Shown here: piece after piece, positions 18,408-41,686 of the stretch
How positions within the stretch are numbered: position 1 is the stretch's first letter
How the letters are laid out: each line of letters starts with the position of its first letter
DNA from: Candidatus Hodarchaeota archaeon
GTDB lineage: Archaea > Asgardarchaeota > Lokiarchaeia > Sigyniarchaeales > SOKP01
DNA length: 64,000 bases
Direction of reading: 5' to 3'
Assembly (NCBI GenBank): GCA_048886685.1
Contig: JBHLKM010000016.1
Coordinates: 32,001-96,000, forward strand
Program-made: the position numbers and the translations under genes
The notes under the pieces: generated by a model
Seen by the model: only the letters and a program-made list of their open reading frames with translations
Told to the model about the DNA's origin: nothing
The model's database searches: none

Positions 18408-18440
18408 AAAAAAAAATCTTCGTGAAAGATGCGTTTCACG
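18408..18440 (-). terminator. Putative terminator downstream of pfk (hairpin plus U tract)
   Basis: Minus strand reads CGTGAAA-CGCATC-TTTCACG, then AAGA and T9. Confidence 0.5.
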
Positions 18441-18591: not shown

Positions 18592-19801
18592 CTATTTTTG
18601 CTTTGAAAGGTATCTAATTTTTACGAGTAAATCTCGAAGTTCCATTTTATCATTGTCAGATGTTATGTATTTCTTTTTTACTCCTTCTGAAAGCGGGATT
18701 GTTTCAATTTTATTTCCTTGGAGAGATACCATATTCCCAAATTTACCTTCTAAAACAAGTTTCATTGCTGCTAATCCAAACCTTAATCCTAAAATCCTAT
18801 CAAATGAATTAGGTGGTCCGGCACGCATGGTGTGACCAAGAACTACACTTCGACATTCGAAATCTACTCCATTTTTCTCAAATTCTTGTTTTAAATCGTC
18901 TCTTAAGTTTAATTCTTCAACAATTATTTGGGACATATTCAATTTTACTAATAATGGATTACCAAATGTATCCTTAGGTAATTTATCAATTGTTTCTTTA
19001 GATATGGTTTTAAAATCTCGGTTAAGAGATTCTAAATTCGGATAGGCTCCCTCTGATGTAGCAATTATATGATATTTATAGCCAGCATTAACTCTTTTTT
19101 TCAAAACATCAATAACATCTTTTTCTAAGTCAAATGGCGTTTCTGGGATTAATATTATATCTGCTCCAGCAGATATTCCGCTATACATTGTTAAAAAACC
19201 TGCATCTCTGCCCATTACTTCTACAACAAATACTCTTTGATGCGATCGAGCCGTGGTTGTAAGATTATCCATCGCGTTAGAGGCTAGTTGTGTCGAACTC
19301 CAGAAGCCAAACGTATAATGTGTTCCCTGCAGGTCATTATCAATAGTTTTTGGCACTCCTACTACTTTAGCATCAGCGAATCTATACAAATTATCAGCCA
19401 CTCCAAGAGTATCGTGTTCAGTTTAAAACAGAAGTTATTCTAAAACTCCACCGATAGCAATTAGAGCATCTATTCCTAATTCTTCAAACTTTTTGGTTAA
19501 TTCTTTAGCTTTTTCCTCTTTTGCACTTACTCCCTTAAATGGATTCGTCCTACTTGTATATAGGATAGTCCCCCCCACAGTATGTAGGTCATCATGTTCT
19601 GCTATATTAAGTGGAATTGTTTGGTTTTCCACAAATCCTTTCCATCCCTTAAGGATGCCAACACATTCAATCCCAGTATCATAAGCTTTAAGCATGATTC
19701 CATAAAGTACGGAATTTAAACCGGGACAGTGTACGACAGTTAAGGAAACCTTTAGACATGGCTCCGCCGCCCGTGAGAATTCCAACTTTTTTAATTGCTA
19801 T
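18592..19801 (-). CDS. pfp: PfkA-family phosphofructokinase, predicted PPi-dependent. Three exons (19762-19801, 19446-19730, 18592-19415) give 382 aa after removal of two BHB-type introns
   Basis: Joined exons (40+285+824=1149 nt) read (M)AIKKVGILTGGGDCPGLN...ALIAIGGDDTLGVA...PKTIDND...EVMGR...LGHTMRAG with no internal stop. SD GAAGGTGA lies 6 nt before an ATA start. Confidence 0.9.
19416..19445 (-). other. Putative mRNA intron 2 of pfk (30 nt, BHB-type, contains in-frame TAA)
   Basis: GGT GGA G^TTTTAGAATAACTTCTGTTTTAAACTGAAC^AC GAT. Exon stem UAUCG/CGAUA, bulges AG^U and AC^A, 9-bp intron stem. Confidence 0.85.
19731..19761 (-). other. Putative mRNA intron 1 of pfk (31 nt, BHB-type, frameshifting)
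   Basis: GGC GGA G^CCATGTCTAAAGGTTTCCTTAACTGTCGTAC^AC TGT. Central helix GCGG/UCGU, bulges AG^C and AC^A. Confidence 0.8.
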
Positions 19802-19807
19802 TTATAA

Positions 19808-19815
19808 TCACCTTC
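19808..19815 (-). promoter_or_regulatory. Shine-Dalgarno site of pfk
   Basis: GAAGGTGA, 6 nt upstream of the ATA at 19801. Confidence 0.7.
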
Positions 19816-19935: not shown

Positions 19936-20337
19936 CTATTCATTTTCATTATTTCCTAACCATTCTTTAAATGTTTTTTGAGGGATCATTTCCTGTATTG
20001 ATATACCTGTCTGTTCTTTAAATTGCTTTTCTATCTCCCTCGTCCATAGCTTCTTATCTATCTGATCATTCAGCTTTATTAAGACTATACCTCCTCTTGC
20101 ATCAAAAGCATCACGTTTAAATGAATCTCTTTGCCTTGTTTTGTATTTACTATGCCAATACATCTCCCAAAACTCATATAATACCTCATATTTCTTTCCA
20201 TTTATCAAAACACTGTTATATCCATCTACATGAGATCTCGGGTGAACTTTTTTATTCACTCCCTTAATTTTTATTTGATTTCCTACAATATTGCGTAAAT
20301 GTGTATGATCAAATTTTACGCCAAATATTTTTTCCAA
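19936..20337 (-). CDS. Hypothetical protein, possible PD-(D/E)xK (Vsr/DUF559-like) nuclease domain or remnant
   Basis: HVDGY...VLYEFWEMYWH...RD pattern resembles the VDG...EFxGxYWH nuclease motif. Confidence 0.5.
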   Translation of the reverse strand: MEKIFGVKFDHTHLRNIVGNQIKIKGVNKKVHPRSHVDGYNSVLINGKKYEVLYEFWEMYWHSKYKTRQRDSFKRDAFDARGGIVLIKLNDQIDKKLWTREIEKQFKEQTGISIQEMIPQKTFKEWLGNNENE

Positions 20338-41458: not shown

Positions 41459-41560
41459 GCAGATGTAGCCTAGTTGGTAAGACGCTGGCCTTGAGTAGAA
41501 CTTACAATCAAGTGAGCCAGTGCGCGTGAGCGCTCGGGGGTTCGAGTCCCTCCATCTGCG
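41459..41560 (+). tRNA. tRNA-Ser(TGA) with a 19-nt canonical (37/38) BHB intron at 41496-41514
   Basis: CTGGC-CTTGAG^TAGAACTTACAATCAAGTG^A-GCCAG. Helix CUUG/CAAG, bulges AG^U and UG^A, long variable arm. Confidence 0.93.
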
Positions 41561-41582
41561 CTTTGTAAACTAGTTTTTGAAA

Positions 41583-41686
41583 GGGCTATTGGCGCAGGCA
41601 GGTAGCGCAGCAGGCTCTTAACCTGACGGTCGGGGGTTCGAATCACTCGTTTGGAAAAGACGAGTGCGAAATTCCCTCATAGCCCG
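41583..41686 (+). tRNA. tRNA-Lys(CTT) with a 30-nt non-canonical T-loop (59/60) BHB intron at 41643-41672
   Basis: GGGCTAT/ATAGCCC acceptor, anticodon loop CTCTTAA, GGGGG-TTCGAA^TCACTCGTTTGGAAAAGACGAGTGCGAAAT^T-CCCTC. Confidence 0.9.

What the first reader, a model, noticed from the sequence alone, without database searches (positions are those of the whole stretch)
19410..19456. pfk intron 2 forms a near-complete hBHBh' fold
Seen in sequence (minus strand): exon stem UAUCG/CGAUA; central helix GUGG/CUGA (one G-A mismatch, two wobbles); 5' bulge AG^U; 3' bulge AC^A; intron stem UUUAGAAUA/UGUUUUAAA (9 bp with wobbles) closing an ACUUC loop. The AG^U bulge is identical to that of the tRNA-Ser(TGA) intron in this window. 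The splice sites predicted from the fold match those predicted independently from protein conservation. The intron interrupts codon 109, equivalent to the Mg-binding Asp of the GGD motif. Inference: the weak central helix may make splicing inefficient or conditional.
Basis: partly seen in the sequence, partly recalled or inferred. Interest (0 to 1): 0.85.

Follow-up and report, generated by a model that had tools for sequence, protein, structure and literature searches.

The report
tRNA-type mini-intron in Asgard pfk
A 30-base insert with two stop codons splits the active-site motif of the only phosphofructokinase gene of a Loki-type Asgard archaeon and is very probably cut out of the mRNA by the tRNA-splicing enzymes; its "weak" central helix is conserved and common in this organism, so it does not look like a regulatory switch.

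Summary
Observation confirmed. The insert (19416-19445, minus strand) is a real relaxed bulge-helix-bulge intron. Only the fold-predicted placement restores GGDD. The same 30-nt insert, always with a stop, occurs in 19 genomes and 21 metagenome contigs, mostly with pairing-preserving changes; the gene is under purifying selection (dN/dS 0.03-0.11). The genome encodes a two-subunit EndA with the relaxed-substrate loop, and RtcB.

The fold as drawn is not the predicted ground state: a slipped register burying the 5' bulge is about 6 kcal/mol better. Covariation still favours the BHB register.

"Weak helix, so conditional splicing" is not supported. The mismatch is unpaired in all 24 distinct variants; 6 of 9 homology-verified mRNA introns and a tRNA-Thr intron of this genome mismatch at the same position. 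Repairing it in silico lowers the cleavable conformer 50-150-fold, because the new base pairs in the slipped register. Slower splicing is not excluded.

No RNA evidence was obtainable. The papers I searched report splicing inside an archaeal coding sequence only for cbf5. This scan already found this same intron in other genomes (e1-5564849, e1-5589182).

The parts
19416..19445 (-). pfk intron 2, 30 nt, phase 1 inside Asp109 of GGDD; in-frame TAA at 19437-19435 and 19425-19423
   Evidence: present in 19 GTDB genomes and 21 metagenome contigs, absent at the same site in 51 orthologs
19452..19456 (-). exon-exon stem h, 5' strand (pairs with 19414-19410)
   Evidence: 99.2% of cells paired; synonymous codons fixed in intron-bearing alleles
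19448..19451 (-). central helix H, exon strand GUGG
19445..19447 (-). 5' bulge AG^U; predicted cut between 19446 and 19445
   Evidence: geometry; third base variable U/A
19422..19444 (-). intron hairpin h': 9-bp stem with a 5-nt variable loop (19435-19431)
   Evidence: 97.7% paired, one A-U to G-C double change; stem identity 0.92 against loop 0.69
19418..19421 (-). central helix H, intron strand CUGA; A at 19418 faces exon G 19451 and is always a purine
   Evidence: 25 A, 1 G, no C or U in 26 distinct variants
19415..19417 (-). 3' bulge AC^A (a 1x4 internal loop if G.A is open); predicted cut between 19416 and 19415
   Evidence: geometry; first base invariant A, second base saturated, all four letters
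19410..19414 (-). exon-exon stem h, 3' strand
19731..19761 (-). pfk intron 1, 31 nt, phase 1 inside Asp14 of GGGD; central helix GCGG/UCGU
   Evidence: all four central pairs form in 30 of 31 distinct variants, with C-G to U-A double changes
19762..19801 (-). pfk exon 1 (40 nt) from an inferred ATA start; GGTGA ribosome-binding-like site at 19812-19808
   Evidence: the start is inferred from alignment to the ATG of relatives
19446..19730 (-). pfk exon 2 (285 nt)
   Evidence: dN/dS 0.03-0.11
18592..19415 (-). pfk exon 3 (824 nt with stop); spliced product 382 aa, PPi-type GGDD/PKTIDND phosphofructokinase
   Evidence: nearest solved relative is the sequence of PDB 9CIR, Ca. Prometheoarchaeum PPi-PFK
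19936..20337 (-). 133-aa ORF inserted between ZPR1 and pfk, possibly a nuclease domain or remnant (accessory; link to the intron unproven)
   Evidence: absent from all other loci examined; atlas feature hits to DUF559/DUF2726 clusters at 0.91, a lead only; no Pfam hit
41496..41514 (+).
   Evidence: the spliced form is recognised by ARAGORN as Ser tga

Best explanation
A relaxed BHB (BHL-like) mRNA intron removed by the archaeal tRNA-splicing machinery as routine maturation. The pre-mRNA forms an exon-exon stem and an intron hairpin that hold the two junctions together. The two-subunit EndA, using its CSL-type loop, selects the register with two 3-nt bulges four positions apart and cuts after the second base of each. 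RtcB joins the exons, rebuilding the GAC codon of the Mg-binding Asp109. Without splicing, translation stops four codons into the insert. The G.A at the exon-side end of the central helix is a tolerated, selected feature of this lineage's introns. At this site it is probably kept because C or U there would pair with G8 and lock the RNA in a slipped duplex that cannot be cut. The intron is dispensable (many close relatives lack it) and moves or is lost repeatedly, perhaps helped by homing-endonuclease genes that insert upstream. Shown: sequence, placement, conservation, selection, enzyme genes. Inferred: cleavage, ligation, the reason for the purine, the route of spread.
For: Unique placement restores GGDD. 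All 40 orthologous inserts are 30 nt with a stop. BHB pairs hold in 92.6% of cells against 31-41% when slid; pair 7-38 is U-A, U.G or C-G, pair 8-37 is G.U or G-C, pair 21-27 is A-U or G-C. The pairs that distinguish the slipped fold fail in 15/24 (6-41) and 9/24 (12-35) variants. Junction codons are fixed in 16-17 of 17 intron-bearing alleles against 6-26 of 38 intronless, while 4-fold sites elsewhere are 42% identical. dN/dS is 0.03-0.11 on both sides. G000 has no second intact pfk. EndA alpha aligns to A. pernix K44/R46 and the Tyr-His-Lys triad; a second subunit and RtcB are present. Nine homology-verified mRNA introns in this genome, six with a position-1 mismatch; 5 of 16 tRNA introns also have a mismatched helix. 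In-silico A39C and A39U lower the BHB-like share from 1.8e-5 to 3.6e-7 and 1.2e-7, while the natural U37C raises it to 4e-3.
Against: No spliced RNA was seen. ViennaRNA gives the BHB conformer about 1e-5 of the ensemble, also in 210-nt context, and the slipped pairs A10-U37/G11-C36 remain possible in 22-24 of 24 variants. Some orthologs keep only two central pairs (G103, G120, G121). Only two pairs show double changes and relatives are not independent. Junction-codon fixation could also reflect co-transfer with the intron. The gene needs a non-ATG start. The negative-design effect is not general: repairing position 1 in the other five mRNA introns leaves the BHB share similar or raises it.
Confidence: 0.85

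Rival explanations
1. The intron is spliced, but the weak helix is a selected rheostat: competition between slipped and BHB registers makes PFK output depend on temperature, ions or EndA level.
For: The gap to the BHB fold (5.9-7.1 kcal/mol) is near the top of the 0-7.3 range of this genome's introns. The competitor fold is available in nearly all orthologs. No variant fills the fourth pair. The predicted BHB share rises with temperature. A. pernix EndA cuts BHL more slowly than BHB (PMC3241643).
Against: 51 of 70 orthologs examined lack the intron, with at least 14 changes on the tree, which fits a dispensable element better than a conserved control. The same mismatch occurs in tRNA-Thr and in trx, cdhA, thiolase and gamma-CA introns. 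Helix strength varies freely among carriers (two to three pairs). A simpler cause explains the purine. Temperature dependence is generic to any such fold.
Confidence: 0.1
2. The insert is not removed; the gene is a pseudogene, or the two fragments work as split proteins.
For: Gene callers annotate 265-269-aa and 113-115-aa fragments in databases. The start codon is ATA.
Against: dN/dS 0.03-0.11 in both exons, no other lesion, only full-length pfk of the genome, and the structure is conserved in 40 carriers at dS near 1. The split destroys the GGDD motif.
Confidence: 0.03
3. The ribosome passes the insert by read-through or bypassing, without RNA cleavage.
For: The insert is a multiple of three and forms a hairpin after a GGA codon, recalling T4 gene 60 (own knowledge).
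Against: It splits a codon, so hopping cannot rebuild Asp109. There is no matching landing codon. Two stops of differing type among orthologs would need reading through, adding 10 residues to the phosphate-binding loop. Exon-exon pairing and the 4-nt stagger would be unexplained. Intron 1 shifts frame.
Confidence: 0.01
4. The insert is excised at the DNA level in part of the population, or is an assembly artefact.
For: Closely related alleles exist with and without it.
Against: It occurs in 40 separate assemblies. No terminal repeats or target duplication in G000 (no sliding possible). The exact empty junction occurs in none of 159 genomes, G000 included.
Confidence: 0.01

Closest known systems
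cbf5 pre-mRNA intron of Desulfurococcales and Sulfolobales (Watanabe 2002; Yoshinari 2006; Yokobori 2009, PMC2738675)
   Same: Short intron in a coding sequence, relaxed BHB, hetero-oligomeric EndA, inserted between bases 1 and 2 of an active-site Asp codon, patchy gain and loss.
   Different: cbf5 splicing is shown by cDNA and cleavage; this is not. Here the host is a central metabolic enzyme of an Asgard archaeon, the gene has two introns, and the genome has at least nine in unrelated genes.
HVO_1309 BHB intron of Haloferax volcanii (PMC7714728; PMC10485636)
   Same: mRNA processed by the tRNA-splicing endonuclease.
   Different: It lies in the 5' UTR and is cut by an alpha2 enzyme; it does not interrupt a codon.
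Non-canonical tRNA introns of Asgard archaea (bioRxiv 10.64898/2026.10.13.758758)
   Same: Same size range, BHB-bounded, repeatedly gained, relaxed class frequent, two EndA paralogues in most genomes.
   Different: That study covers tRNA genes only (the word mRNA does not occur in its text). By its rule this site is 'relaxed', a class it finds too permissive to be evidence alone.
Homing BHB introns of archaeal rRNA, and free-standing homing endonucleases acting beside an intron (own knowledge)
   Same: EndA-type removal; LAGLIDADG genes occur directly upstream of pfk in several intron-bearing relatives.
   Different: The intron encodes nothing. The association is mainly with intron 1, is not significant on independent pairs, and G000 has a different short ORF at that place.

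Membership tests
Archaeal EndA-spliced (BHB-type) intron | Precise removal restores a conserved product | tested here: met
   One placement restores GGDD; 382-aa PFK, about 86-92% identical to intronless orthologs of the genus
Archaeal EndA-spliced (BHB-type) intron | Junctions after base 2 of two 3-nt bulges on opposite strands, four positions apart | tested here: met
   Geometry matches the protein-defined junction; register supported by variation at pairs 7-38 and 8-37
Strict hBHBh' class (Marck and Grosjean) | All four central positions form standard pairs | tested here: not met
   Position 1 is G.A in 24 of 24 variants in alignment A3; 2-3 pairs overall
Strict hBHBh' class (Marck and Grosjean) | Flanking exon helix h and intron helix h' | tested here: met
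   5 bp and 9 bp; 99.2% and 97.7% of cells paired
Relaxed BHB / BHL intron | Host encodes a broad-specificity EndA, (alpha-beta)2 with a CSL-type loop | tested here: met
   Two PF01974 genes; alpha K56/R58 align to A. pernix K44/R46, triad Y139/H147/K178. Sequence only; activity not tested.
Archaeal EndA-spliced (BHB-type) intron | RtcB ligase available | tested here: met
   Full-length PF01139 match, E 1e-167
Archaeal EndA-spliced (BHB-type) intron | BHB conformer is actually adopted | tested here: inconclusive
   Not the predicted ground state; the same holds for most tRNA introns of this genome in local windows; comparative data favour it
Archaeal EndA-spliced (BHB-type) intron | Cleavage and ligation shown on RNA | not testable with these tools
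   No RNA run could be laid on this stretch
Group I or group II self-splicing intron | Ribozyme core of hundreds of bases | tested here: not met
   30 nt; no Rfam match over the insert
Regulated non-spliceosomal mRNA splicing (IRE1-HAC1/XBP1 type) | Signal-dependent change in spliced fraction | not testable with these tools
   No expression data; patchy presence argues against a conserved switch

The most novel reading that the evidence does not exclude
Loki-type Asgard archaea splice many mRNAs with the tRNA endonuclease using their own relaxed rule (three central pairs and an open position beside the 3' cut). These 30-nt introns spread by hitch-hiking with free-standing homing endonucleases, and at pfk the competing fold sets a condition-dependent limit on a key glycolytic enzyme, that is, regulated mRNA splicing in the closest prokaryotic relatives of eukaryotes.
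Probability: 0.1. Interest if true: 0.9.

Novelty: new variant of a known kind. Interest (0 to 1): 0.66.

Why it matters
Splicing inside an archaeal coding sequence is documented, in the papers I could search, for cbf5 alone. If confirmed, Asgard archaea carry multi-intron protein genes processed by EndA and RtcB, the same chemistry type that eukaryotes use for tRNA and, with a different nuclease, for XBP1 mRNA. That bears on when mRNA splicing became routine. It also means pfk and other genes in these genomes are annotated as fragments, which distorts metabolic reconstructions. This site gives a 47-nt substrate with natural variants and a clear prediction (A39C worse, U37C better), so the substrate rule of an Asgard EndA can be tested in vitro without culturing the organism.

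Tried and rejected
RNA evidence: no RNA holder was listed for this stretch; this is no evidence either way, and no reads were laid. I looked for a spliced copy among protein-database hits: no full-length protein exceeded 98% identity to an intron-bearing allele, and the nine contigs checked had ordinary intronless junction codons. A motif-only genome scan gave 164 candidates, mostly noise; pfk intron 2 stood out, but the scan is not usable as a census. A motif-free comparison with 400 kb of genome G021 recovered intron 2 but missed intron 1 and gamma-CA, so it undercounts. The GlcF candidate could not be verified against an intronless relative. The AG^U identity with tRNA-Ser was rejected as uninformative. 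The slipped fold as the conserved structure was rejected on its distinguishing pairs. Negative design as a general cause of position-1 mismatches was rejected. A single clade of intron-bearing alleles was rejected (AU p 3e-77). The link between the upstream insertion and intron 1 is strong in raw counts (10/20 against 1/46) but not significant on independent pairs (median p 0.125). Sigma-70 promoter scan at chance level and not suited to archaea. Literature: eight searches found no paper on Asgard mRNA introns; subscription journals are not covered. Searches were input errors.

Full report
Setting. The window is 28-37% G+C. Genomes carrying the same insert are named Promethearchaeota (Loki-type Asgard) in their records. 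The stretch lies in a minus-strand pfk gene that appears as two ORFs. Removing 19731-19761 and 19416-19445 gives a 382-aa protein with intact GGGDCPG, GGDD and PKTIDND motifs. Its nearest solved relative is the sequence of PDB 9CIR, Ca. Prometheoarchaeum PPi-PFK. It is the only full pfk of the genome.

Observation. Only one of 13 deletion placements restores GGDD, and it is the one the fold predicts. The motif quality is reached by 18 of 200,000 intron shuffles and 7 of 8.8 million genome positions. The split codon is the first Asp of GGDD, described as Mg-binding in PPi-PFK; the number 109 assumes an ATA start. The tRNA-Ser(UGA) intron has the same 5' bulge, but this follows from codon and anticodon letters, and the third base varies among orthologs.

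Is it a real intron? Of 70 genome loci examined, 19 in three genera carry the insert and 51 lack exactly those 30 nt; a pattern scan added 21 metagenome contigs. The loci are not a random sample; in the two protein-based sets the share was 5/30 and 4/30. All 40 inserts hold an in-frame stop. In 24 distinct variants the drawn structure pairs in 92.6% of cells against 31-41% when slid, with double changes at two pairs; relatedness inflates such counts. Stem identity is 0.92, loop 0.69, last base 0.32, so the intron is old enough for free sites to saturate. Synonymous junction codons are fixed in 16-17 of 17 carriers, while 4-fold sites elsewhere are 42% identical. dN/dS is 0.03-0.11 on both sides. 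Intron 1 gives independent support: four central pairs in 30 of 31 variants, with exon-intron double changes. The genome encodes two EndA subunits and RtcB. The catalytic subunit matches A. pernix EndA best, including the K44/R46 loop that confers cleavage of relaxed motifs (PMC3241643).

The fold. ViennaRNA does not predict the drawn BHB. Its minimum slips the pairing by two bases so that the 5' bulge pairs with the intron (-10.5 against -4.6 kcal/mol), also in longer context. This is not peculiar: tRNA introns of the same genome show gaps of 0-7.3 kcal/mol in the same kind of window (junctions set by hand, partly guided by the motif, and each spliced form recognised by ARAGORN). Comparative data favour the BHB register. 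Changes at 7, 37 and 38 mostly keep or strengthen BHB pairs, while pairs special to the slipped fold fail in 15 and 9 of 24 variants. With three of four central pairs the site is a relaxed BHB, not strict hBHBh'.

The weak helix. The G.A position never pairs; its intron base is A in 25 and G in 1 of 26 variants, never C or U. Using leads from earlier notes, I verified against intronless relatives seven more mRNA introns in this genome (uvrB, uL11, gamma-CA, thioredoxin, the gene noted as cdhA, two in thiolase). With the two in pfk that makes nine. Six mismatch at this same exon-side position and one elsewhere (binomial p 0.001; the set was picked by readers, so it is not unbiased). Five of 16 tRNA introns also have a mismatched helix; tRNA-Thr(UGU) has A.G at position 1 and tRNA-Arg(UCU) has one Watson-Crick pair, two wobbles and a mismatch, as here. 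So the enzyme must handle such substrates routinely (inference). For this site there is a specific reason for the purine: C or U would pair with G8 in the slipped register, lowering the BHB-like share 50- and 150-fold, whereas the natural U37C change raises it about 240-fold. These are model energies without protein, and the effect does not extend to the other introns. The conditional-splicing inference therefore lacks support, though slower splicing is possible.

History. Intron-bearing alleles are scattered over the pfk tree (at least 14 changes among 66 rows; one clade rejected). Four intronless alleles keep the 5' junction codons, as expected after loss. Contig C5 of this genome holds a 232-bp pfk piece, 94.8% identical, with the intron variant of genome G008; this suggests DNA movement between relatives or contamination of the bin (8.4%). 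Extra ORFs between ZPR1 and pfk occur in 10 of 20 intron-1 carriers and 1 of 46 others, and three tested are LAGLIDADG endonucleases. Homing with co-conversion is a reasonable lead, not a result.

Comparison. It works like the cbf5 intron, which also splits an active-site Asp codon after its first base and has a relaxed motif (PMC2738675). Reviews list cbf5 and the 5'-UTR intron of HVO_1309 as the archaeal mRNA cases (PMC10485636, PMC7714728). A 2026 preprint documents abundant Asgard tRNA introns but does not treat mRNA. Earlier agents of this scan reported these pfk introns in other genomes; those are unchecked notes, not independent support.

Verdict. A real, selected, relaxed-BHB intron, very probably spliced by EndA and RtcB (0.85); RNA proof is missing. 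Novelty: new variant of a known kind. Interest 0.66.

Noticed in passing
window 19799-19812 (-): pfk has no in-frame ATG: a TAA directly precedes an ATA that aligns with the ATG of relatives, 6 nt after a GGTGA site. G026, L059 and L081 likewise have ATT or ATA, so non-ATG starts recur in some intron-bearing alleles.
   Followed up: partly
G000 C5:244014-244245 (L160): Orphan 232-bp pfk fragment, 94.8% identical, carrying intron 2 in the variant of genome G008 and ending about 14 nt after it; DNA-derived. Transfer or bin contamination.
   Followed up: partly
window 19936-20337 (-): 133-aa ORF inserted between ZPR1 and pfk, with weak likeness to DUF559/DUF2726 nuclease-type clusters. Relatives carry LAGLIDADG or other ORFs at this place, nearly only when intron 1 is present.
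   Followed up: partly
window 19731-19761 and loci L057, L059, L090, L092, L108, L130, L132: Two different intron sequences (31 nt and 30-32 nt) occupy the same site 1, suggesting separate gains or deep divergence.
   Followed up: partly
G000 C1:288858(-), C1:204867(+), C3:76487 and 76537(+), C3:215413(+), C5:86550(+), C18:88180(+): Seven further mRNA introns of 29-35 nt verified against intronless relatives, including a 16-nt micro-exon in a thiolase.
   Followed up: yes
window 41459-41561 (+): tRNA-Ser(UGA) is missed without the intron option and miscalled tRNA-Thr with it; at least 16 tRNA genes of this genome have introns, many at non-canonical positions.
   Followed up: partly
window 41563-41660 (+): A tRNA-like stretch resembling the genome's tRNA-Lys(UUU) start but with a broken 3' acceptor side lies just after tRNA-Ser; possibly a degenerate copy.
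   Followed up: no
L007, L008 and other carriers ending in AG: In 11 of 24 variants the intron ends in AG like exon 2, giving a 2-nt direct repeat and a sliding junction; G000 has none.
   Followed up: no
window 18421-18440: Bidirectional terminator-like hairpin between pfk and the downstream MFS gene.
   Followed up: no
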